Shown piece after piece: positions 85 through 63,562 of a stretch of 64,000 bases of DNA (position 1 is its first letter; each line of letters starts with the position of its first letter). This stretch comes from a virus, in IMG/VR virus record IMGVR_UViG_3300024294_000597, one strand, 5' to 3'. The notes under the pieces are model-generated. The model made no database searches. It was not told where the DNA came from and saw nothing but the letters and a program-made list of their open reading frames with translations. A program made the position numbers and the translations under genes.

Positions 85-1575
85 TTATTTAACTGTTGGT
101 CTTAGCTTAGTCAATGCAATAAAGATTAAGCTAGATACAATTAAACCAGGAACTATCGGCTCAACAAAGTTGTATACACCCATATCATAAGTGATACCAG
201 TGAATAGCTTTGATTCTTTGAAGTGTACGAATAGTACCCAAATGATACTCACCGAAGCACCACCGATAAAACTAGTAAGAGCATGACGACCATTAGATAG
301 TCCTCTTGCCATACCAATAACGAGTGGAAGCATCGCCGCTCCTATAATACCAAAGTACAACGCAGTAGCACGTGCAATGATGGCCACTTGACCATTAAAT
401 GCAATAGTCATCCAGACTGCTAATACAATAACTGCAATCATAGAAATATATGCTACTTTCAAACTTGGGTTTTTAGTTTTGATAATATCATTTGAAATAG
501 TAGTTGATAACAAGTGCATCAAACTATTAAGTGTTGTAAATGCGGCCGCTAAAATTGTAACGAACAACGCACTACTTACCCAAGCAGGAAATCCTTCCTT
601 AATCCAATAAGGGATTACATTTGCAGTCCCTCCACCAGATGCTTGTGATACAGTGATACCTTCAGTCGCAAACGTATATGAGTTAGCCGAAATTGCCGCT
701 AACATAAATGTTACGATTGCTAGACCTGGGATAATAACACCCCACCTTGCAATAGTTTTAAAACTCTTTTCATCTTTAGCCATCATCCAACGTGTTTGTA
801 GTTGAGGCAAAGTGATAAGTCCTACTGGAATAGTGAATACCAATAATGTAGTAATCATTAACCAGCCTCTAGACCAAAACTCTGGCCAGCTAGTAAACCC
901 AGTAAATCCTAACTTATGCAAAGCATCACCTTCTGGAACTGCTGTCCAGGCTAGTGATAAGTTTTCCCAAAATCCAACTGCCTGCATATGACTAAACACT
1001 GTAATAGCAAGTACGATAAGTGAACCTAAAATAACAATGATACCTTGTACCATATCATTTTTTAGAACTGCACTCATTCCGCCATATGCGATTGTGCCAA
1101 ATACTAAAACACTAAATCCAACTACAGCAAGTGTGAAATCAACACCTGTAAATGCTGTAATAAATTTACCGACACCTATTAGCACCGCAACACAGTAAAA
1201 CGGAATTAATCCAACTGTGATGATTGCCAATAGTTTTGAAATCATTGGAGAGTTATAATGCTTACCAATCATTTCAATATAGGTTTTAGCTTTATGCTTT
1301 TTGTTTGCCTTATAAACTTTAGGACCGATATACACGGTCGCAAAATAAATTAAGCCTACAAATGGAATTGTCATTGTTAGTGGGACTGCAAATCCAATCC
1401 AACCAGCAAGGCCTCCGAATCCAATGATAGCAGACGTTGAAATTAACGTTGCACCATAAGACAGCCCTAGGTTCATATTACTATCTGATGTAGTTAGAAA
1501 GTAATTATCCCCTTTAGACCTGTAGGCTACATAACCTACTGCTACAATAAAAAGTAGCATTAATATTGTGTTCAT
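85..1575 (-). CDS. Sodium:solute symporter (SSS/PutP-like) family transporter
   Basis: 496 aa with about 13 hydrophobic segments; YGGMSAVLKNDMVQG and ILAAAFTT motifs typical of SSF; RBS AGGAGG. Confidence 0.85.
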   Translation of the reverse strand: MNTILMLLFIVAVGYVAYRSKGDNYFLTTSDSNMNLGLSYGATLISTSAIIGFGGLAGWIGFAVPLTMTIPFVGLIYFATVYIGPKVYKANKKHKAKTYIEMIGKHYNSPMISKLLAIITVGLIPFYCVAVLIGVGKFITAFTGVDFTLAVVGFSVLVFGTIAYGGMSAVLKNDMVQGIIVILGSLIVLAITVFSHMQAVGFWENLSLAWTAVPEGDALHKLGFTGFTSWPEFWSRGWLMITTLLVFTIPVGLITLPQLQTRWMMAKDEKSFKTIARWGVIIPGLAIVTFMLAAISANSYTFATEGITVSQASGGGTANVIPYWIKEGFPAWVSSALFVTILAAAFTTLNSLMHLLSTTISNDIIKTKNPSLKVAYISMIAVIVLAVWMTIAFNGQVAIIARATALYFGIIGAAMLPLVIGMARGLSNGRHALTSFIGGASVSIIWVLFVHFKESKLFTGITYDMGVYNFVEPIVPGLIVSSLIFIALTKLRPTVK

Positions 1576-10676: not shown

Positions 10677-11369
10677 CTAAAAATCAGTATTTTCATCTAC
10701 TGCATAGTTTGTCGCATCTGGGTCTATTGGCATTTCTGGAAGGTCTTCGTACGGAAATGCTTGAATTGAAACTGGAGAAACTGGCTGAGACATTACTTCC
10801 TCTTCTCTTCCATTTTCTCTCTGAGAAACACTATCATTTCCACTAGCATCTTCGGGTAATCCCATTCTAGGATTTACCTCTTTAAGTCCGCCACCATTTA
10901 TCCTAAAGTCATATGTAGAATATTCACCGCCATTGGTTTCTCCTCTACCTTTTAATTCACCTTCTTTATCTGAATCTGACTCCATCTTAGGACCCATTTG
11001 TTGCTTGATACCTTGTTCTGTTTTGTCTTTAGCATCTTGCATTGCTTTTTTATTATTCTTTGTATTTGGTATACTTACTGCACGTGGTTTATTTTTATTA
11101 GGTTCGATAACCCATACAAATATACTTTGTCCATCTGGAGATTCGATGTGTGATAGATATATTGAATCTTCTGGAATATTAACATTAATAGGATAACCAA
11201 GTATCTTGTCAACAGACATGTAGCTTATAGCTACAGATATCATCACTAATGGTATAATAAAACCTAACAGTAATGCATTTCTATGGTTCTTGATTGCAAA
11301 CCATAGCACAACACATGCTAGAAAAAATAGCGAAATAAATAGTGGTGCTAATTCTGCCGAATATAACAT
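10677..11369 (-). CDS. Membrane protein (2 N-terminal TM, acidic disordered tail)
   Basis: Hydrophobic N-terminus; third gene of the MotA/ExbB-like triad. Confidence 0.65.
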   Translation of the reverse strand: MLYSAELAPLFISLFFLACVVLWFAIKNHRNALLLGFIIPLVMISVAISYMSVDKILGYPINVNIPEDSIYLSHIESPDGQSIFVWVIEPNKNKPRAVSIPNTKNNKKAMQDAKDKTEQGIKQQMGPKMESDSDKEGELKGRGETNGGEYSTYDFRINGGGLKEVNPRMGLPEDASGNDSVSQRENGREEEVMSQPVSPVSIQAFPYEDLPEMPIDPDATNYAVDENTDF

Positions 11370-11392
11370 ATTGTTTCTCCATATGTAGAGGA

Positions 11393-12031
11393 CTAAAGCC
11401 CGCCTGCACTTGCCCTTCTCGTTATAATATTATTATCTAACGTATTGTATTTAACAAAATTACCATCTTTATCTATCCAAAAGTTGACTAATGGCAGTTG
11501 TTGTCCTCTTATGGAGTATTGTTTTTCACCTATTACTACTTCTACATAAGGATTAATCTTAATTACTTTAAACTTGACCACAATTTCAGATGCTTTTAAT
11601 TTCTTTCTGGCAGATGCATTTGGTGATGCTGAATATATATGTGCGGCAACTTGATATTGTCCCTTAGAAGTTCCACGCAAAGTGACAACTTCTCTATTGA
11701 TGTAGATTATATTGCGTTGTCCATATTCATCAATCGTCATATCATTGGCAGTTCCTAAATCATCTTTTTCAAGGTTCATTGCGCCTGCCATTTTCTTTAT
11801 GAAGGATACCGTATTGCCAGCTGGATCTTTAACCCATAAGTCAACATCATCAGGTAATGTATGAGGCCATTCTATAACAATCATGTACTCTGCTTTTTTA
11901 GGTACATCTTGTTTCTTTGTGATTGGGTTAATAAGGATAAAAGCAATAATGAACAGGAATACAAAACCTACTAGTAGATTAAATAGTAAGTCTGTAAATC
12001 CTACTGTACTTTTGTACTTATAACGGCTCAT
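11393..12031 (-). CDS. MotB/ExbD-like TM anchor fused to a YfaP/DUF2135-like domain
   Basis: GFTDLLFNLL: Asp in a single TM; DDVDLWVKDPAG...LEKDDLG...NRE...GQYQVAAHIY. Confidence 0.6.
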   Translation of the reverse strand: MSRYKYKSTVGFTDLLFNLLVGFVFLFIIAFILINPITKKQDVPKKAEYMIVIEWPHTLPDDVDLWVKDPAGNTVSFIKKMAGAMNLEKDDLGTANDMTIDEYGQRNIIYINREVVTLRGTSKGQYQVAAHIYSASPNASARKKLKASEIVVKFKVIKINPYVEVVIGEKQYSIRGQQLPLVNFWIDKDGNFVKYNTLDNNIITRRASAGGL

Positions 12032-12486
12032 TCGTAGTCACGACTCTCAAGATTAACTAATTGTATCTTAGTAAACTGACTGAATATTAGTCCGGTGAGA
12101 GTTGTGTACAATGCAGTACTCATTCCTAATGCCATTGCAGTGAGTGTCGATTTGAGACTGGCTGTATCTTCTACATCTAATCCTTCGAAACTAGAACCTA
12201 GCATAAGAATAAATCCTGCTACAGTTCCAATCATACCCAATGCTAACATACTTTCTGAGATAAACCATCCAATGCCTAATCCGGCTTCAATGGACTCACC
12301 TTTATTATGTTGAATAGTTAGCTTACCTATATATAGGCTTGCAAAAAAATATAATCCTATAATACCGAAACTAATTTTTGTAATATCTTTTTCGTATAAC
12401 TCATGGAATATTCCAAAGTAATGAGCGATACCCATTACAGTCAGTGATATACAAAAGAATAACCACCACCTAAGTGTCTTTGACAT
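12028..12486 (-). CDS. MotA/TolQ/ExbB proton channel family protein
   Basis: LGMIGTVAGF and GMSTALYTTLTGL signature helices. Confidence 0.8.
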   Translation of the reverse strand: MSKTLRWWLFFCISLTVMGIAHYFGIFHELYEKDITKISFGIIGLYFFASLYIGKLTIQHNKGESIEAGLGIGWFISESMLALGMIGTVAGFILMLGSSFEGLDVEDTASLKSTLTAMALGMSTALYTTLTGLIFSQFTKIQLVNLESRDYE

Positions 12487-12498
12487 GTCTTATTTTTC

Positions 12499-12738
12499 CT
12501 ATAATTTATCAACATGCTCCTGAACGCATTGAATGGCATCACCAATCGTGTGGATTAGGTTTGCGTATTCATCTTCAATCGCAATACCATAGAATTCTTC
12601 CACTTCAAATACAATTTCAACTGTATCGATACTATCAGCACCTAAGTCTTTTTTGAGATTTGTTTCATCATTCAAGTCAGTAACTTGTTTTTTCAATTTA
12701 CGTGCAACTATTTCATACACTTTGTCTTTTACTACCAT
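12499..12738 (-). CDS. acpP: Acyl carrier protein
   Basis: DLGADSIDTVEIV with the phosphopantetheine Ser; acidic, 79 aa. Confidence 0.92.
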   Translation of the reverse strand: MVVKDKVYEIVARKLKKQVTDLNDETNLKKDLGADSIDTVEIVFEVEEFYGIAIEDEYANLIHTIGDAIQCVQEHVDKL

Positions 12739-12760
12739 TATTCCCTGTAAGTCCTCTTAG

Positions 12761-13084
12761 TTATACTGAAAAGCTACTACCACACCCACATGTAGTACTC
12801 GCTCCTGGGTTATCGATTACAAATCTATCACCTTGTAGACTTGAAATGTAATCTACTTTTGCATCTGCTAGATACATAATGCTCATACTATCTACTACTA
12901 ACTTTACGCCATTAGTCTCGTAAATACTATCATCATCTTTAAGTTCTTTTTCAAAACCAAAACCATAACTGAAACCATGACACCCACCGCCTTCAACAAA
13001 CACTCTTAGTGCAGTATCAACCGATTCTCCCTGTTCAGTAATAATTTCTTCAACACGTTCTGCCGCTTTTTCTGTAAAAATCAT
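12761..13084 (-). CDS. A-type Fe-S carrier (ErpA/IscA family)
   Basis: GGGCHGFSYGF and TTCGCGSSFSV; start moved to the ATGA overlap. Confidence 0.92.
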   Translation of the reverse strand: MIFTEKAAERVEEIITEQGESVDTALRVFVEGGGCHGFSYGFGFEKELKDDDSIYETNGVKLVVDSMSIMYLADAKVDYISSLQGDRFVIDNPGASTTCGCGSSFSV

Positions 13085-13809
13085 ACTCGCCATACCTTTA
13101 TATCTCTGGACTGTTTGCTATACATAGAGTATTTCAAATCATCGTCCGTTGATTTAATTGAATAATCAACAGGGCCACCTGTCAAATATTCTTTATTATT
13201 CTTACTTTGGTACCACTTAAGACTTTCATCTGGATAGCCAATACCTAAACTGTAAGTTAAGTTATTATCTTCTGGTTTGATGCCTAACACTTCTCCCCAT
13301 ACTTCTTGACTATGCTTAGGTTCTTCTATGTAACCAAAGTTTTTTCCATAACCTGTAACATATCCCATTTGGTTTGCACTAAATGCCACTATGCCACTGG
13401 CTATACCAATCGATGTAAATGCATTATCCCATCTGCTTGATGCATTTGGGTCTCTTACACTTCCATCTTTTTCGTTATTACGAATTTCTTCTTCATTCAT
13501 TTTTCTATTAAAAACAAATAAACAATTTGCACCCATTTGAGGATTTCTTCCTACCCAATCTTTTACGCCTGGAATCATAGTGAAGCCCCATGAATGATCC
13601 TTGCATAGATAGTCTATCTTTTCTCTATCAGTAACAACATACAAATCAAAGAAACTTTCATCTTGCTTCGAAGGTGCCGTAGTTGCTAGATAGACCCAAT
13701 GGTCTATGTGGTCTTCATTAACTTTTTTAGAAAGGTCCCAGTTTCGTTGACACCTACGTGCTTGATTAATTGCATTTCTTTCTGCAATCATTTTTTCTTC
13801 GTTGGTCAT
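13081..13809 (-). CDS. Nitroreductase-fold flavoprotein
   Basis: RRCQRNWD, APSKQ, IGIASG, LGIGYP; ATGA-coupled start. Confidence 0.75.
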   Translation of the reverse strand: MTNEEKMIAERNAINQARRCQRNWDLSKKVNEDHIDHWVYLATTAPSKQDESFFDLYVVTDREKIDYLCKDHSWGFTMIPGVKDWVGRNPQMGANCLFVFNRKMNEEEIRNNEKDGSVRDPNASSRWDNAFTSIGIASGIVAFSANQMGYVTGYGKNFGYIEEPKHSQEVWGEVLGIKPEDNNLTYSLGIGYPDESLKWYQSKNNKEYLTGGPVDYSIKSTDDDLKYSMYSKQSRDIKVWRV

Positions 13810-14135
13810 ACTGTAAAACTCTCCCCACAACCACATCGTGCTTTTTCATTTGGATTGCTTACAAGTTCAAAATGCGAACTCATACTTTTCTCATCAGTAA
13901 CATAATCCAATGTTGCTTCATCGATAGTGTGAAAATATTTATGCTCTACTAGTATATCAAAATCGCTATACTTTATAGCAAAGTCATCAGTTATATTAAA
14001 ATTGTCATCTAATTGCACTTCATACATAAAGCCAGTACATCCTGCAGTTTTGATATGCAATCTTACATGTTTCTCTGGGTTTTGTGACAGCCAAGTTCTA
14101 ATTCGTTGAGTGGCGTTATCTGTTAAATACAACAT
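13806..14135 (-). CDS. A-type Fe-S carrier (IscA/SufA family)
   Basis: TAGCTGFMY and RCGCGESFTV. Confidence 0.88.
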   Translation of the reverse strand: MLYLTDNATQRIRTWLSQNPEKHVRLHIKTAGCTGFMYEVQLDDNFNITDDFAIKYSDFDILVEHKYFHTIDEATLDYVTDEKSMSSHFELVSNPNEKARCGCGESFTV

Positions 14136-14655
14136 ATGTTATCCCCTCCTCAATGTTTTCTTTTTTAGACTTTGCGTCTTGATGAATTTGTGATATTTCA
14201 TAAAATCTATTTAGTAATCCACTTGCTGTCCTGTAGTTTTGATAAACATCGATACTTTGTTCTATTTGGTCTTTGATAAATTGTGTCTGTTCTTTTAGTT
14301 CATCAATGAAGCTATTTATTTCGTCAATAGTAACCTGTTCTTCTAACTGCAACTTCAACTGATTAATAAACATCATATCATCAGGTCTTGCACCGTCTCT
14401 GAAATCATTTTCATGGCCCATTAGTTCAAGAATATACCTCGCACGTTGTATTGGATCTGCAAGAGTTTCAAAGGCTCTATTTGCAAATGATAATCTATCT
14501 TGACCTATGAATGATGCATCTTTTCTGAGTATCGTAATTATTTTTTTATAGTGTGTAGTAAGACTACGCACACTTATACCCTGCTTCTCATCGATGCCAA
14601 AGAACTTAAAGTAGTTCTTTTCTTCAAGACCATATATTCGTTTTATTCCAGACAT
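14116..14655 (-). CDS. HscB-like Fe-S co-chaperone lacking the HPD motif
   Basis: NYFKFFG...ANRAFETLADPIQRARYILELMG matches HscB; the HPD position reads RKD. Confidence 0.75.
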   Translation of the reverse strand: MSGIKRIYGLEEKNYFKFFGIDEKQGISVRSLTTHYKKIITILRKDASFIGQDRLSFANRAFETLADPIQRARYILELMGHENDFRDGARPDDMMFINQLKLQLEEQVTIDEINSFIDELKEQTQFIKDQIEQSIDVYQNYRTASGLLNRFYEISQIHQDAKSKKENIEEGITYVVFNR

Positions 14656-29265: not shown

Positions 29266-29973
29266 TTATTTATCTAAATCACTTAATAGCACGGATTTTG
29301 TTATGGTACTAATGCACTCACTTGCAACAAAAGTTAGCAAATCTGTATCAATTCTCTCACGGCAATAAATTGCGTATAGTTGATACGGATGATGAATATA
29401 TCTGCCCTGTTTCTTTTGCATATATACAGGATCAAAACGCATCATATTAGAGTTAAGTCTATAATTTGGATTATGTGCATACATTTTGTACAAGTCGTGA
29501 CCTGTATGGTCAATAAAATCTCTATTAGGCTTGAATACTATCTTATATTGATATTTTTTAAACCATAGCGACCTCTTTATTTCTACTCTACGGTCAAAGC
29601 TATCTAATACCTCTTTTAGATTTTCAATCATAGGCTCAGCGTAGCTTTTATGCAAATCTACATATCTTTGTTTTGCTTCTTCATAATCAGACTTATGTTT
29701 AAAATACACATGAGTTAATGCACCATTATTGAATTTTACGTTTTTAAACTTTTTTAAGTAGTTATAGCAATTAATTCTAACTGATTTTTCTTCATCGTCA
29801 CGTGGCATATCAAACCACCAATCATTAATAGCTTGTGGATTTTCTTGGAAATGTCTTCGCCAAAATAAGCTGTCTTTATCTGGGAATCCAAATAAACGCT
29901 TAAATGATATCTTATATGGGTGAGTCCCATAAAATAATTTAGTTACTTTTTCCGTAATCAAAATCAATCTCAC
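29266..29973 (-). CDS. Hypothetical protein
   Basis: 235 aa ORF overlapping the end of clpA. Confidence 0.55.
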   Translation of the reverse strand: MRLILITEKVTKLFYGTHPYKISFKRLFGFPDKDSLFWRRHFQENPQAINDWWFDMPRDDEEKSVRINCYNYLKKFKNVKFNNGALTHVYFKHKSDYEEAKQRYVDLHKSYAEPMIENLKEVLDSFDRRVEIKRSLWFKKYQYKIVFKPNRDFIDHTGHDLYKMYAHNPNYRLNSNMMRFDPVYMQKKQGRYIHHPYQLYAIYCRERIDTDLLTFVASECISTITKSVLLSDLDK

Positions 29974-32170
29974 TATTTTTGATATTAATTGTTACTGCGC
30001 CACCATCGACAAGTTTTCCAAATAATATTTCTTTTGATAAAGGTTTCTTAATGTAATCATTGACTACTCGTTGTAAAGGTCTTGCTCCCATGTCAGGGAG
30101 ATATCCTTTATCTCTTAACCAAACTCTTGCTTCATCTGATAATTGTATAGATACATTTTTATCTGATAGCATTTCATTGATTTCTTTGATTGTTTTATCA
30201 ACAATCATGTCTATGTGTTCACGTTCCAATGAAACAAATTCAACCATTGCATCTAGTCTATTTCTAAACTCTGGTGAAAAGAATTTCTTAACTGCTTCAT
30301 ATGAAGCACCTTGATTTGAATTCGTGAACCCTATAGCACTCTTAGATTGTTGTGCCGCTCCTAAGTTACTAGTCATTATAAGAATAACATTGCTAAAGTC
30401 TGCTGTTTTACCAGTTGAACTAGTCAAACGACCATCGTCCATAACTTGTAATAAGAGGTTCATTACACTTGGATGGGCTTTCTCAACTTCATCTAATAGA
30501 ACAACACAGTTAGGTGTTTCATCTACGTCATTGATAAGTTGTCCAGCACCAGCCCCGCCTTCGGCGTGTCCTACATAGCCCGGAGGGGCACCGATAAGTT
30601 TAGATACAGAATGTTGTTCCATGTATTCTGACATATCGTACTTTCTAAGTTTGATATCAAGATTATCTGCTAATTGTCTACACAATTCAGTTTTACCTGT
30701 TCCTGTTGGACCTACAAACAAGAATGACCCTATAGGTTTATTTCTTGCCCTCATACCTGATTTAGATACGAGTATAGATTCAACTAATGAACCAACTGCT
30801 TTGTCTTGTCCAAATAGTTTTGTCTTAATACTTTCTTCTAGTTTTTCATAGTTCGCATTTTGTTTTGCGTCTATCATTTCTAAAGGAATTCTTGTAATTT
30901 TTGCTACGGCTTGTTGTATTTCTTCTTTAGAAATTTTACCTTTATGTTTGTGTAGCTTTGCTCTTGCACCTGCTACATCAATAACATCGATTGCTCTATC
31001 AGGGTTAAACTTACCATGCATATAACGTTCTGCTAAATCAACTGATAACTCTATCGCTTCGCTTGTATATTCTACTTCGTGATATGCTTCATAATATTGC
31101 TTCAAGCCTTTTAAAATTAATTTTGTATTCTCTGCACTTGGTTGGTCAATAACAAGTTTCTGAAAACGTCTTTGTAATGCTCTATCTTTTTCAAAGTTTT
31201 CTCTGTATTCTTCACTTGTTGTTGCACCAATACAATGCAATTTACCATTTGCTAATAATGGTTTCAATAAGTTTGCAATATCTATATTAGACCCACCTGC
31301 CGAACCTGCACCCATAATCATATGTATTTCATCAATGAATAAGATAACATCTTTCTTCAATGCTAGTTGGTCAAATACTGCTTTTGCTCTTTCTTCAAAT
31401 TCACCACGATACTTTGTACCTGCTACTAATGAAGTAACATCTAGTGAGTAAACTGTTTTTTCTTTTAATATCTCAGGAACTTGTCCTTCACCAATCATCA
31501 ATGCAAGACCTTCTGCTATAGCAGTTTTACCTACGCCTGGTTCACCGACTACGATTACATTATTCTTTTTACGTCTTGCTAATACTTCGGTCATTTCGAT
31601 TAGTTCATCTTCACGACCAATAACTGGATCAATTAGTCCATCCAATGCTTGTTGATTTAGATTTAAGCAATAATCTTCAAATCTAACAGGTGCGCCTTGT
31701 CCCTGTCCGCCACCAACCATGTCTCTACCTTGCTGAGTACCATAATATTCTTTTCTAAGAATATCAATGGCTTTATCACGGGTAACACCTGATTGCTTTA
31801 AAATATAATAAGCTGTAGAACCATTCTCACTCAATAGAGAAACAAATATATCTCTTACTTGAAGTTTGGAACGTCCACTAAAAATTACTTGTGTTACTGC
31901 ACGATTGAAAACACGGTCTAATGATAGAGTTTTTCTTGGCGTCTTAGTATCTTCGTTCTTCGTAATATCATCACGTTCATTGAGAAATTTTTCTAGTTCT
32001 TCTAAAATAAATTTTACGTCACATTTCATTTTTGATAACATGTCACTAACGTCTTCTTCTTCCATAATAGAATATAAAAGATGTTCTAGTGTTACATATT
32101 CGTGTGCGAGTGAATTTGCGTGTTGAACAGCACGTTCAATAGAAATGTTTACTCTATCTGCTTTGCTCAT
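29939..32170 (-). CDS. clpA: ATP-dependent Clp protease ATPase ClpA
   Basis: Clp N domain, two AAA+ modules (GEPGVGKT, GPTGTGKT), GYVG pore loop, IGF loop, no middle domain. Confidence 0.93.
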   Translation of the reverse strand: MSKADRVNISIERAVQHANSLAHEYVTLEHLLYSIMEEEDVSDMLSKMKCDVKFILEELEKFLNERDDITKNEDTKTPRKTLSLDRVFNRAVTQVIFSGRSKLQVRDIFVSLLSENGSTAYYILKQSGVTRDKAIDILRKEYYGTQQGRDMVGGGQGQGAPVRFEDYCLNLNQQALDGLIDPVIGREDELIEMTEVLARRKKNNVIVVGEPGVGKTAIAEGLALMIGEGQVPEILKEKTVYSLDVTSLVAGTKYRGEFEERAKAVFDQLALKKDVILFIDEIHMIMGAGSAGGSNIDIANLLKPLLANGKLHCIGATTSEEYRENFEKDRALQRRFQKLVIDQPSAENTKLILKGLKQYYEAYHEVEYTSEAIELSVDLAERYMHGKFNPDRAIDVIDVAGARAKLHKHKGKISKEEIQQAVAKITRIPLEMIDAKQNANYEKLEESIKTKLFGQDKAVGSLVESILVSKSGMRARNKPIGSFLFVGPTGTGKTELCRQLADNLDIKLRKYDMSEYMEQHSVSKLIGAPPGYVGHAEGGAGAGQLINDVDETPNCVVLLDEVEKAHPSVMNLLLQVMDDGRLTSSTGKTADFSNVILIMTSNLGAAQQSKSAIGFTNSNQGASYEAVKKFFSPEFRNRLDAMVEFVSLEREHIDMIVDKTIKEINEMLSDKNVSIQLSDEARVWLRDKGYLPDMGARPLQRVVNDYIKKPLSKEILFGKLVDGGAVTINIKNSEIDFDYGKSN

Positions 32171-60700: not shown

Positions 60701-63562
60701 CTATTCAGTATCAGAAGTCAATAACAAAGTGTCCCCGCCTATAGCTGTTGTGTTAATACTTATATGCTTTTCCCATACATATGGAGTTAAATAATTAGGT
60801 CCACCTGCTTTAGGACCTGTTCCACTTAAACCTGATCCACCAAATGGCTGTGTCTCTATGACTGCTCCGATTTGGTCTCTATTTACATAAACATTTCCTA
60901 CATTCAATGTCTTTGCAATATGTTCATAAAATCTATTAACACGTGAATGAACACTCAGTGTTAATCCAAATTTACTTTTGTTTATAAAATCTAATATCTC
61001 TGGTAACTCAGACTTTTCGTAAACATACACATGCAATACTGGGCCAAAGATTTCTTCATCAAAATATTTCTTATAATCTGATACAGTATATGCACATGGT
61101 GGGACAACTAGATTTGGTAAAGTTTTTCCATTACGTGATTTCATTGCAATAAGTTCTTCTGTTTCTTCCAGTACCCCAATACGTGCTTGAATACGTGAAT
61201 ATGCCGGTCCATCGATAACCCTAGATATATCTGTATTCAAATCATCTGCATGTCCAAGTGTCATTACTTTTATCTTTTGTGCTAACATGCGAATAACTTC
61301 CGCACTATTATCTTTTTGAACAAAGAGAAATCTGGTCGCACTGCATCGTTGTCCTGCACTATCAAATGCACCATATGTAACATCTTCTACTACTTGCTCT
61401 GGTAAACATGTTGAATCTGTTATCATACAGTTTATGCCACCTGTTTCTGCGATAAACGGTATAATGGGACCATCACGTTCTGCAATTAACCTTTGAATGG
61501 CTTTAGCACTACTATGAGAGCCTGTGAACGTTACACCCGCTATACGCTCATCTTTGACAGCCATAGACGCACTCTCAATGCTAGGGTCACACATACGCAA
61601 TGCATCTACTGGAATGCCAACATAATGCATACTTGCAATCGCAACCTTGGCAATCTCAACTGTCTGTGGTGCTGGTTTTGCCAGTACTGTGTTTCCTGTA
61701 ATCAATGCGGCTACTACTGGTCCTAAAAATATCGCATAAGGGAAGTTCCATGGGGCAATCACCATCCAAACTCCACGTGGATTAACTAATGTAGTATTAT
61801 GCTCTCCTGTATACCCCAACTTAACATCTACATTGTACATTTTTTCTGCCTGTTCAACATAGTATCTTATGAAGTCGATTGTTTCTCTTACTTCTGCTAT
61901 TGCGTTAGGATATGTTTTATAAGAATATTTTACAAGTCTATTTGCCGCACTAACCATTTCTGCTTCTATACTGTCTGCACATGCTAATAGTAATTTCTTT
62001 CTGTGTTCAAATGTTGTATTGGCCCATTGGGGCTGATAGTTTTCTAAAAGTGTTATCGTATCTTTTACTGAAATTACTTCTTCATCGTGTGGAGGATGCG
62101 TTGGCGAATCCAACATGTAATCAATCATTGCAGGATCTGATAGGTCGTAACCTTTGCTATTCTTTCTTCCAGGATATAATTGATCCCAAGTTTTTAATGA
62201 TGTTTTTTTCTTTTTGACTTCTATAAATGGGTCAGTCACTTCTAAGCTATATACAAAACTAGTGTTTGCCCCATTTTCTAATAATCGTCTTATTAGGTAT
62301 GCAAGTAAATCTTTGTACTCTCCTACCGGAGCATAAATTCTAATTTTATGATTTGATGTTTTTCTTATGTAATCAAATAAACTATTTCCCATACCAAACA
62401 ATTTTTGAAATTCAAAGTCTTCATTGCAATCATTACAGTTTTTTAATGCATGAATAATTGCTGATACAGTATATGGATTATGTGTTGCAAATGCACTTTT
62501 TAAATTTTTAGATTGTACTAATTTTCTAGCACATGCTAGATAAGATATGTCCGTATTTTCTTTTCTAGTAAATACTGGGTATTCTAGTCCATCTTGTTGA
62601 GCGTATTTTATCTCAGTATCCCAATATGCACCTTTAACGAGCCGTATAACTACCCTTGTGTCGTTATGCTCTGCTATTGTCTGTAAGGTATTAATAGTCC
62701 AAAATGCACGTTTCTGATAAGCCTGTAGAGCAAATCCAACAGTATCATTTTTAAATTTATAAGTTGTTAATAATTCTTCTAATACCATAATACTAATATC
62801 TAGTCTACGTGCCTCTTCTGCATCGATAAACATAGTAGTATTGTTTTCTTCGCATACTCTAGCTATAGCGGCTAATTTAGGTACTAGTGTGTGTAAAACA
62901 TCTATGTGGTTCTTTAATTCGTATCTAGGGTGTATTGCGGACAGTTTTATAGATATAGACTCTTTTGATTTTGTTGCCGCCTCAAGATATCTTTCATAAT
63001 ATAAATTCGCATCTTCCCAATTTGTTGCGGCTTCGCCCAACATATCAAACGAATAAGTGTATCCAGGTTTTTTCTTTTTGATTGCAGTATCAATACTATT
63101 GCCCATAACAAATAATGTGCCCATATGTTTTACCATAGATTTTGTTATTTTTCTTACCGTTGGCCAGCCAAGCCTAGCAACTATGCCTTCATATGCAGAA
63201 AGTTGTTGTGCCTGCGTCAAAGCGGTGCTGGCAACTTTAGAATAAAAACTATTATTTGCTAAGTTATTCCATTGAGCGTTTGATAACTTATCTTTTATAA
63301 GTTCATCCTGCGTATCACTATCTGGTGTTCGTAAAAGAGATTCACAAAGGGTCATAAGTGCCATACCTTCAGGTGCACTCATATCATATGACTTCATAAT
63401 TTGAGTCAGGTAATGTTCTTCGGTAAGTTTAGATTGAATTTGTTTGGCATCAGTCATAATAGACTGACGGTCTTTACTAGATAAACGACACGCAATTAAT
63501 AGTTTTTCAACTATATCTAATTCGTTTTTTCTATAATAGTCATTATGTGGATAACACTTCAT
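60701..63562 (-). CDS. putA: Bifunctional proline dehydrogenase / glutamate semialdehyde dehydrogenase PutA
   Basis: SFDMLGE, IDAEE, RLVKGAYWD, FATHN, YLIRRLLENGAN; PWNFP, ETGG, SAGQRCSA, EIFGP; no RHH domain. Confidence 0.95.
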   Translation of the reverse strand: MKCYPHNDYYRKNELDIVEKLLIACRLSSKDRQSIMTDAKQIQSKLTEEHYLTQIMKSYDMSAPEGMALMTLCESLLRTPDSDTQDELIKDKLSNAQWNNLANNSFYSKVASTALTQAQQLSAYEGIVARLGWPTVRKITKSMVKHMGTLFVMGNSIDTAIKKKKPGYTYSFDMLGEAATNWEDANLYYERYLEAATKSKESISIKLSAIHPRYELKNHIDVLHTLVPKLAAIARVCEENNTTMFIDAEEARRLDISIMVLEELLTTYKFKNDTVGFALQAYQKRAFWTINTLQTIAEHNDTRVVIRLVKGAYWDTEIKYAQQDGLEYPVFTRKENTDISYLACARKLVQSKNLKSAFATHNPYTVSAIIHALKNCNDCNEDFEFQKLFGMGNSLFDYIRKTSNHKIRIYAPVGEYKDLLAYLIRRLLENGANTSFVYSLEVTDPFIEVKKKKTSLKTWDQLYPGRKNSKGYDLSDPAMIDYMLDSPTHPPHDEEVISVKDTITLLENYQPQWANTTFEHRKKLLLACADSIEAEMVSAANRLVKYSYKTYPNAIAEVRETIDFIRYYVEQAEKMYNVDVKLGYTGEHNTTLVNPRGVWMVIAPWNFPYAIFLGPVVAALITGNTVLAKPAPQTVEIAKVAIASMHYVGIPVDALRMCDPSIESASMAVKDERIAGVTFTGSHSSAKAIQRLIAERDGPIIPFIAETGGINCMITDSTCLPEQVVEDVTYGAFDSAGQRCSATRFLFVQKDNSAEVIRMLAQKIKVMTLGHADDLNTDISRVIDGPAYSRIQARIGVLEETEELIAMKSRNGKTLPNLVVPPCAYTVSDYKKYFDEEIFGPVLHVYVYEKSELPEILDFINKSKFGLTLSVHSRVNRFYEHIAKTLNVGNVYVNRDQIGAVIETQPFGGSGLSGTGPKAGGPNYLTPYVWEKHISINTTAIGGDTLLLTSDTE

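What the first reader, a model, noticed from the sequence alone, without database searches (positions are those of the whole stretch)
10677..12486. Phage-encoded MotA/ExbB-type ion-motor triad with a YfaP-like periplasmic domain
Seen: a compact MotA/TolQ/ExbB protein is ATGA-coupled to a single-TM partner carrying the conserved Asp (FTDLL). That partner's periplasmic part looks like YfaP/DUF2135 rather than OmpA-like or ExbD. A 2-TM protein with a long disordered tail follows. Known: 5:2 MotAB, ExbBD, TolQR and ZorAB motors couple ion flux to work or to phage sensing. Inference: an undescribed member of this motor family in a lytic phage, with the third gene as a TonB/TolA-like transducer. Possible roles are superinfection exclusion, PMF modulation or poisoning of host Ton/Tol/Zorya complexes.
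Basis: partly seen in the sequence, partly recalled or inferred. Interest (0 to 1): 0.8.

Follow-up and report, generated by a model that had tools for sequence, protein, structure and literature searches.

The report
Stripped-down ion-motor trio in phage
A large marine phage carries a miniature copy of an unstudied three-gene membrane machine related to the flagellar-stator/Ton/Tol ion motors; the same trio occurs in hundreds of phages and in roughly one in eight sampled Alpha- and Gammaproteobacteria, and nobody knows what it does.

Summary
On the minus strand lie A (12028-12486, 152 aa, Pfam MotA_ExbB above its cut-off), B (11393-12031, 212 aa, ATGA-overlapped with A) and C (10677-11369, 230 aa, two TM helices, a small periplasmic domain, a disordered tail). 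B has one TM helix whose Asp14 is kept in 99-100% of more than 100 diverse relatives. Its periplasmic beta-sandwich matches E. coli YfaP/DUF2135 by profile comparison (92.5%, E 5e-7) and TerD by fold (Z 8.5).

A-B-C order is kept in 84 of 88 loci examined. These include cultured Rhizobium phages, T4-like contigs and 200-340 kb phages.

The main correction is that the trio is not phage-specific. It sits in the chromosomes of 57/401 sampled Alphaproteobacteria and 47/400 Gammaproteobacteria, among ordinary cellular genes. Bacterial A carries a 31-73 aa cytoplasmic insert and a C-terminal tail that every phage copy lacks.

My reading is a host-type, ion-driven motor with periplasmic output, kept by phages in minimal form. 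Its target is unknown. C shows no TonB/TolA feature. The 5:2 assembly could not be tested, and the one B-C complex job gave no verdict. An earlier agent in this scan reached the same reading on other phage DNA. I found no paper describing it.

The parts
12028..12486 (-). Gene A: a minimal 4-TM MotA/TolQ/ExbB-family channel subunit (152 aa). It has no cytoplasmic domain: the TM2-TM3 loop is about 12 residues.
   Evidence: PF01618 scores 33.3 bits against a cut-off of 22.9. A family profile hits MotA, ExbB and TolQ chains in the PDB first, though weakly (E 0.09-3), and aligns the GxxGT and ALxTTxxG helices. Invariant across phage copies: W7, D34, G84, G87, T88, G91, A125, T128, T129, G132, Q142. 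Phage copies have 0-8 inserted residues, against 31-73 in bacterial copies.
12028..12031 (-). ATGA overlap between the stop codon of A and the start codon of B (translational coupling).
   Evidence: Read directly from the sequence...gactacgaATGAgccgtt.
11393..12031 (-). Gene B: the MotB/ExbD-position subunit (212 aa). The N terminus is cytoplasmic, one TM helix carries Asp14 (GFTDLLFN), a short linker follows, and the periplasmic domain is an acidic beta-sandwich (about residues 48-200) of DUF2135/TerD type.
   Evidence: Invariant or near-invariant residues are D14, W55, D62, D64, L87, D90, D91, G93, D97, N112, E114, R119, H131 and P161. The model has pLDDT 69.5, with a helix at 9-34 followed by 10 strands. 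The best fold matches are TerD-family chains: 2qz7_B at Z 8.5 over 129 residues and 2kxt at Z 7.5, with the next chain at 5.7. hhalign against YfaP gives 92.5%, E 4.8e-7. The family has 1780 clusters at 50% identity with E<=1e-3.
10677..11369 (-). Gene C: a 2-TM protein (230 aa) with a conserved periplasmic alpha/beta domain (LGYP motif; residues about 58-127), a conserved short strand motif (GGEY.xYDF, about 147-154) and a lineage-specific disordered acidic tail. A GGAG ribosome-binding site lies 8 nt before the ATG.
   Evidence: The model has pLDDT about 90 for residues 10-125 and below 60 beyond 131. The alignment of 27 diverse members has P40, G58 and G120 invariant and L22, P60, Y71 and H74 near-invariant. 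C lies directly downstream of B in 84 of 88 loci. It has no Pfam or PHROG hit and no convincing PDB fold match. Atlas neighbours are only hypothetical proteins of viruses and Pseudomonadota.

Best explanation
The three genes encode a compact inner-membrane ion-motor module of the MotA/ExbB superfamily.

Inferred from the family: A forms the ion-conducting ring around the TM helices of B, and the invariant Asp14 of B takes up and releases the coupling ion against the conserved Thr88 and Thr128/129 helices of A.

Shown: nearly all extramembrane mass lies in the periplasm. This comprises B's acidic DUF2135/TerD-like beta-sandwich, probably metal-binding, on a linker of about 12 residues, and C's small domain with its tail. 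A has almost no cytoplasmic part. Any work must therefore be delivered at the outer face of the inner membrane or in the periplasm through B and C. C is an obligate third subunit whose partner is unknown.

The module is of cellular type, being chromosomal in many Alpha- and Gammaproteobacteria. Phages have kept a stripped version for a long time, usually in islands of host-like auxiliary genes and often behind a T4-type late promoter.

My most likely reading is that the phage copy supplies or boosts this envelope function in the infected cell, rather than attacking a host motor. The output itself remains unknown.
For: - Family membership of A.
- ATGA coupling and the Asp-bearing TM of B, with the Asp kept in 99-100% of members.
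- A lies directly upstream of B in 86-87 of 88 loci, and C directly downstream in 84 of 88.
- The periplasmic location of B and C is inferred from charge distribution and the models.
- B's ectodomain is DUF2135/TerD-like, with seven invariant acidic or amide residues.
- Cellular homologues occur in 57/401 Alphaproteobacteria and 47/400 Gammaproteobacteria. They lie on Mb-size contigs with native GC of 0.27-0.72, flanked by tilS, accA, dnaE, response regulators and transporters.
- Every viral A lacks the cytoplasmic insert and tail found in bacterial A.
- Phage neighbours are variable host-like genes: IscA, SbmA/BacA, ClpP, ClpS, Hsp20.
- An exact TATAAATA lies 23-49 nt upstream of A in 13 of 66 distinct viral copies, against about 1.3 expected.
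- The phage B sequences form old, diversified clades.
Against: - No assembly, ion flux or phenotype has been shown for any member.
- A matches solved MotA, ExbB and TolQ only weakly by sequence (E 0.09-3).
- The loss of A's cytoplasmic domain in all phage copies could mean a changed or antagonistic function rather than simple substitution.
- In this window there is no late promoter in front of A. The gene follows the ACP gene by 12 nt in an Fe-S/ACP operon, so timing here is unknown.
- It is not known whether this phage's host has the trio.
- The tree is a quick one, with weak deep nodes and a midpoint root.
Confidence: 0.6

Rival explanations
1. C is a TonB/TolA-like force transducer that spans the periplasm and couples the A-B motor to an outer-membrane target. 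The phage uses it for superinfection exclusion or for energised outer-membrane transport.
For: The three-gene logic of motor, Asp subunit and a third membrane protein with a periplasmic part parallels ExbB-ExbD-TonB and TolQ-TolR-TolA. C is strictly co-conserved. C in this window and a few relatives has a long disordered tail, and a conserved strand-like motif (EY.xYDF) could dock by beta-augmentation.
Against: C has two TM helices, not one. It has no SHLS-like His motif and no TonB_C or TolA_C hit. Most family members are only 150-170 aa and lack any long spacer. No PDB fold match was found. B's linker is too short for a TolR/MotB-like reach.
Confidence: 0.15
2. The phage copy is an antagonist or an uncoupled leak. 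The stripped A, possibly mixing with host B and C, poisons the host trio or dissipates ion-motive force. This would control lysis timing, block superinfection or shut down host envelope functions.
For: All phage A copies have lost the cytoplasmic insert and C-terminal tail kept by bacterial copies. Many copies sit behind a late-type promoter. B has no recognisable plug helix between the TM helix and the sandwich.
Against: Phages keep all three genes with the same invariant residues as bacteria, including the Asp and the acidic cluster. That fits a complete working unit better than a decoy. A few chromosomal copies also have short loops (L102, 12 residues). No toxicity data exist.
Confidence: 0.15
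3. The complex is not a force-generating motor but a gated ion channel or sensor. B's acidic TerD/DUF2135-like sandwich would bind Ca2+ or another cation and gate ion flow through A, which would make the trio an envelope cation or stress sensor.
For: The best fold match of B is the Ca2+-binding TerD family. Seven invariant Asp, Asn or Glu residues lie in the sandwich. A has no cytoplasmic torque interface.
Against: No effector or signalling domain exists in any of the three proteins. Metal binding is inferred, not shown. All characterised relatives of A do mechanical work (family knowledge).
Confidence: 0.1

Closest known systems
ExbB-ExbD-TonB and TolQ-TolR-TolA inner-membrane motors
   Same: These systems also have three adjacent genes. 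They combine a MotA/ExbB-family channel subunit, a single-TM partner with an essential TM Asp and a cytoplasmic N terminus, and a third membrane protein with a periplasmic part. Their output goes to the periplasm, not the cytoplasm.
   Different: A has four TM helices in MotA-like topology and, in phages, no cytoplasmic domain at all (141-170 aa against 230-244 aa). B's ectodomain is DUF2135/TerD-like, not the ExbD/TolR fold. C has two TM helices and no TonB or TolA domains.
Flagellar stator MotA-MotB / PomA-PomB
   Same: A has a 4-TM topology, an Asp sits in the TM helix of B (FTDLL resembles the MotB/PomB ADLM-type context), and the genes are translationally coupled.
   Different: There is no cytoplasmic torque-generating loop, no plug helix and no OmpA-like peptidoglycan-binding domain. 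An obligatory third gene is present, and there is no link to flagellar genes.
Zorya ZorA-ZorB anti-phage system
   Same: It is a MotAB-like pair used in phage-bacterium conflict.
   Different: ZorA has a very long cytoplasmic tail, and ZorC/ZorD effectors accompany it. Neither is present here. This trio is carried by the phage and by chromosomes outside defence-type contexts.
YfaP (DUF2135) of the E. coli yfaSTAQP operon, and the TerD family
   Same: B's periplasmic sandwich is remotely homologous to the DUF2135 region of YfaP and has the TerD-type fold.
   Different: Neither YfaP nor TerD is attached to an Asp-bearing motor TM helix or paired with a MotA/ExbB gene. Both are themselves of unknown or poorly defined mechanism.

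Membership tests
MotA/TolQ/ExbB proton-channel family (PF01618), gene A | Match to the family HMM above the curated cut-off | tested here: met
   33.3 bits against 22.9. Relatives in Rhizobium phages, T4-like contigs and bacteria also pass.
MotA/TolQ/ExbB proton-channel family (PF01618), gene A | Two C-terminal TM helices with the conserved Gly/Thr channel motifs | tested here: met
   LGMIGTVAGF and STALYTTLTGL are present. G84, G87, T88, G91, A125, T128, T129 and G132 are invariant, and they align to the same helices of MotA and ExbB chains.
MotA/TolQ/ExbB proton-channel family (PF01618), gene A | Cytoplasmic domain between the N-terminal and C-terminal TM helices | tested here: not met
   The loop is about 12 residues in the window. 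Viral copies have 0-8 inserted residues, against 31-73 in bacterial homologues.
5:2 rotary motors (MotAB, ExbBD, TolQR, GldLM, ZorAB) | Pentamer of A enclosing a dimer of B | not testable with these tools
   Seven chains exceed the six-chain limit of the complex tool.
MotB/ExbD/TolR-type B subunit | Single N-terminal TM helix with a conserved Asp, encoded directly after A | tested here: met
   D14 is kept in 99-100% of members. There is an ATGA overlap. A is adjacent to B in 86-87 of 88 loci.
MotB/ExbD/TolR-type B subunit | Periplasmic ExbD/TolR fold or OmpA-like peptidoglycan-binding domain | tested here: not met
   The window protein has no Pfam hit. Only 3 of 101 members give sub-threshold ExbD hits. 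The model is an all-beta sandwich whose best matches are TerD-type.
DUF2135 (PF09906, YfaP-like) | Match to the Pfam model above its cut-off | tested here: not met
   8 of 101 members hit weakly, the best at E 0.0021. None is above the cut-off, and the window protein does not hit.
DUF2135 (PF09906, YfaP-like) | Profile-level homology to a bona fide member (E. coli YfaP) | tested here: met
   hhalign gives probability 92.5%, E 4.8e-7, over 76 columns (B 45-139 against YfaP 139-217).
TerD family | TerD-type beta-sandwich fold | tested here: inconclusive
   2qz7_B gives Z 8.5 over 129 residues and 2kxt gives Z 7.5, with the next unrelated chain at 5.7. Foldseek gives E 2e-3 and TM 0.35-0.45. There is no sequence-level hit, and the model pLDDT is only 69.5.
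TonB / TolA transducers, gene C | Single N-terminal TM anchor, extended Pro-rich or helical spacer, and a C-terminal TonB_C or TolA_C domain | tested here: not met
   C has two TM helices and no Pfam hit. Most members are 150-170 aa with no spacer.
Zorya (ZorAB+ZorC/D/E) | ZorA long cytoplasmic tail and linked ZorC/D effector genes | tested here: not met
   A has no cytoplasmic extension. The neighbours are ACP and Fe-S genes, tRNAs, or AMG-like genes. The PADLOC library was not scanned.

The most novel reading that the evidence does not exclude
The trio is a separate, undescribed branch of the ion-driven 5:2 motor superfamily, with its own B ectodomain (a metal-binding DUF2135/TerD sandwich) and its own third subunit. 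It would drive an unknown periplasmic or envelope process common to many marine and soil Proteobacteria. Phages would have pared it down to the smallest working motor core known (about 150-aa A subunits) to run that process late in infection.
Probability: 0.45. Interest if true: 0.8.

Novelty: new variant of a known kind. Interest (0 to 1): 0.62.

Why it matters
Ion-driven 5:2 motors (flagellar stator, Ton, Tol, gliding, Zorya) are a small set of machines, and each has opened a field. This appears to be a further, widespread member with a different periplasmic module and an obligatory third subunit. It occurs in about 12-14% of the sampled Alpha- and Gammaproteobacteria species and in hundreds of phage lineages, and no function is assigned.

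The phage form is a natural minimal version: its A subunit is roughly half the size of ExbB or TolQ. That makes it attractive for structure determination and for asking what the bare transmembrane core can do.

It is also experimentally reachable. Cultured Rhizobium phages (RHph_N34, P10VF, RHph_N3_13 and relatives) carry the trio. Knowing its output would show what envelope process large marine phages need to sustain or redirect.

Tried and rejected
- **Complex prediction.** I submitted the B ectodomain (two copies) with the C periplasmic part. The result was 'no answer' (score 0.00), which is evidence neither for nor against binding.
- **PHROGs.** None of the three proteins has a family hit.
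- **PDB sequence search with the B profile.** It returned only insignificant hits.
- **Fold searches for C.** VIA-align matched only the TM hairpin to generic helical hairpins. Foldseek gave nothing below E 0.27. The soluble domain was not folded alone, so I make no claim that the fold is new.
- **First genome-contig scan.** Narrow peptide patterns found only three MAG contigs, which proved to be T4-like phage contigs. This briefly suggested a phage-only family. The HMM-based genome-search runs overturned that.
- **Lysis link** (a lead from earlier scan notes). In my loci the neighbours are variable AMG-like genes, not endolysin, holin or spanin genes. I rejected it as a general feature, although late-type promoters are common.
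- **Late promoter in this window.** None lies in front of A. TATAAATA occurs five times in the window, below chance expectation and never near the trio.
- **Sigma-70-like sites in the region.** They are no more frequent than in shuffled sequence.
- **Organism names for the bacterial carriers.** These could not be obtained.
- **Literature.** Searches for phage-encoded ExbB/MotA modules, DUF2135 and YfaP found nothing relevant. The 2025 mBio survey of MotAB homologues covers bacterial genomes only and does not mention this B type.

Full report
**What is there.** Three co-oriented minus-strand genes fill 10677-12486.

- **A** (12028-12486, 152 aa) passes the curated threshold of Pfam MotA_ExbB, at 33.3 against 22.9 bits. 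By hydropathy and charge it has four TM helices in a MotA-like in/out pattern, with only about 12 residues between TM2 and TM3.
- **B** (11393-12031, 212 aa) starts inside A's stop codon, as ATGA. It has a basic N terminus and one TM helix containing GFTDLLFN. The AlphaFold model (pLDDT 69.5) continues with a ten-strand beta domain from about residue 48.
- **C** (10677-11369, 230 aa) follows after 23 nt, with a GGAG ribosome-binding site. It models as a TM hairpin, a confident small alpha/beta domain and a disordered tail.

None of the three has a PHROG family. The window is phage-like: it has head-decoration, tail-fibre, clamp-loader and ligase PHROGs and ten tRNAs. It also carries many host-like genes, including ClpB, PutA, an SSF symporter, IscA x2, HscB, ACP, pseudoazurin and DoxX. 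No whole genome is held for it.

**Is it a real, conserved unit?** Yes.
- tblastn found B in 26 cultured Rhizobium/Sinorhizobium phage records. In RHph_N34 and RHph_N3_13 the flanking genes are a 141-148 aa MotA_ExbB protein and a 2-TM protein with the same GYP motif.
- B has more than 1,291 close relatives in metagenomes, and 1,780 clusters at 50% identity with E<=1e-3.
- I examined 88 loci with B: IMG/VR contigs, 200-340 kb metagenome contigs, T4-like contigs mis-binned in MAGs, and the Rhizobium phages. A is directly upstream in all but those cut by a contig end. After one HMM iteration, C is directly downstream in 84.
- The exceptions are a frameshifted nanopore contig, a contig end, and two loci with a longer B followed by another gene.
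- Asp14 of B is kept in 99-100% of diverse representatives. So are W55, D62, D64, D90, D91, G93, D97, N112 and E114.
- A keeps the GxxGT and ALxTTxxG helices throughout, and these align to the channel helices of MotA and ExbB structures.

**The B ectodomain.** hhalign of the family against E. coli YfaP gives 92.5% probability, E 4.8e-7 over 76 columns. Plain Pfam gives only sub-threshold DUF2135 hits in 8 of 101 members. By fold, the best solved matches are TerD-family proteins (Z 8.5 and 7.5 over 125-129 residues, next chain 5.7). Foldseek agrees weakly. TerD proteins bind Ca2+ (titles of the PDB entries). Given the invariant acidic cluster, I infer a metal-binding sandwich, but this is not shown. 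The linker from the TM helix is about 12 residues, so the sandwich must sit close to the membrane.

**The decisive correction: it is not phage-specific.** An HMM search of whole genomes found B in 57 of 401 genomes sampled from the class of a Hellea MAG (Alphaproteobacteria). It also found B in 47 of 400 genomes sampled from the class of a gammaproteobacterial MAG.
- I fetched fifteen places on contigs of 0.25-4.9 Mb. In thirteen A, B and C lie together; in the other two (L112, L113, plus L111 as a second copy in one genome) only A and B were recognised. GC ranges from 0.27 to 0.72, following the genome.
- The neighbours are ordinary cellular genes: NYN, response regulators, FtsX, a periplasmic binding protein, SoxYZ, and tilS-accA-dnaE.
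- All are annotated 'hypothetical protein'.
- Bacterial A proteins carry a 31-73-residue insert between TM2 and TM3 and a 21-60-residue C-terminal tail. Every viral A has 0-8 and 0-15 residues respectively. Three small genomes are intermediate.
- B and C are alike in phages and bacteria, down to the invariant residues.
- A quick maximum-likelihood tree of B puts the window in a phage-only clade of 39 rows (SH-aLRT 92). The Rhizobium-phage copies lie nearer a bacterial clade. Deep nodes are weak and the root is arbitrary, so I conclude only that phage copies are old and diversified, not recent captures.

**Context and timing.**
- In this window A begins 12 nt after an ACP gene, at the end of an HscB-IscA-nitroreductase-IscA-ACP run. 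No late-promoter motif precedes it. Relatives of 200-340 kb keep the IscA-trio arrangement.
- Elsewhere the neighbours vary and look like auxiliary genes: SbmA/BacA-type transporter, ClpP, ClpS, Hsp20, a ring-hydroxylating oxygenase. No recurrent lysis gene appears.
- An exact TATAAATA lies 23-49 nt before A in 13 of 66 distinct viral copies, against a background of 0.019 per 170 nt. In 39 of 67 copies the motif is within one mismatch. Late transcription is therefore likely in many T4-like carriers. I followed this lead from earlier scan notes and checked it here.

**How it most likely works.**
- Shown: family membership of A, the conserved Asp partner, strict three-gene linkage, periplasm-facing mass, cellular homologues, and systematic trimming of A in phages.
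- Inferred from the family: an A ring around a B dimer, with ion passage via Asp14 and the Thr helices driving movement.
- Inferred from anatomy: the output goes to the periplasmic side through B's sandwich and C, because A has no cytoplasmic interface.
- Inferred from distribution: the phage copy is a host-type auxiliary module that keeps or boosts this function in the infected cell.

The rivals are a TonB/TolA-like transducer role for C, an antagonist or ion leak, and a cation-gated channel or sensor. They are listed with their tests. C fails every TonB/TolA criterion I could test.

**What could not be done.** A 5:2 model needs seven chains, and the limit is six. The single complex job (B ectodomain x2 with the C periplasmic part) returned no verdict. 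A was not folded. Carrier organisms could not be named.

**Novelty.** I found no paper on such a trio, on DUF2135 or on YfaP function. An earlier agent of this scan, working on a 342-kb marine phage, reached the same reading. That is a repeat, not independent proof, but I re-derived its main claims here. I class the finding as a new variant of a known kind of machine.

Noticed in passing
L057:2495-3520 and eight other viral loci, directly upstream of gene A: An SbmA/BacA-family inner-membrane transporter (PF05992, E 3e-76) sits immediately before the trio in one phage lineage. ClpP (L041:4488-5081) or ClpS (L078:5125-5430) follows C in others, and Hsp20 precedes A in another (L080:3049-3495).
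   Followed up: partly
Gammaproteobacterial chromosome (no DNA held): The bacterial trio there is preceded by tightly spaced YkuD (L,D-transpeptidase) and DUF302 genes. It is followed, with overlapping stop and start codons, by a 524-aa protein with FHA, Yop-YscD_cpl and weak vWA hits. A roughly 262-aa fourth gene also overlaps C's end in L099 and L101. These may be lineage-specific additional subunits.
   Followed up: no
L037:2109-2921 and L047:2614-3417: Two viral loci have a longer B (about 270 aa) and no recognisable C. A 220-aa protein of another kind follows instead.
   Followed up: no
window 10680-11369 (C), Atlas structure search: One neighbouring Atlas cluster is made of 297-aa viral proteins that all carry Phage_lysozyme (PF00959). 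It aligns to C residues 29-160 with TM 0.58 by query. This may be a membrane-anchored lysozyme with a C-like part, or it may be chance.
   Followed up: no
window 12499-14655: The trio is the tail of a tight run of HscB-like, IscA, nitroreductase-like, IscA and ACP genes. The IscA-IscA-trio order recurs in 206-341 kb relatives (L003-L005), together with a RyR-domain protein and a 1592-aa protein.
   Followed up: partly
window 85-1575, 29939-32170, 60701-63562: The phage window also encodes a sodium:solute symporter, a full-length ClpB-type double AAA+ chaperone and a 953-aa PutA (proline dehydrogenase plus aldehyde dehydrogenase). This is an unusually rich set of host-like metabolic genes.
   Followed up: no
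PDB 11pb_C (virion structural protein), residues 248-336: The B profile weakly matches (E 0.33) a phage virion protein at a DDVDIYVKGPNG stretch that resembles B's DDVDLWVKDPAG motif. DUF2135-like sandwiches may also occur in virion proteins.
   Followed up: no
L007, L008, L009 (genome contigs MAG records): Contigs filed under Legionellales, Gammaproteobacteria and Hellea MAGs carry T4-type DNA polymerase and gp46/47-like genes beside the trio. They are probably phage contigs binned into the MAGs.
   Followed up: partly
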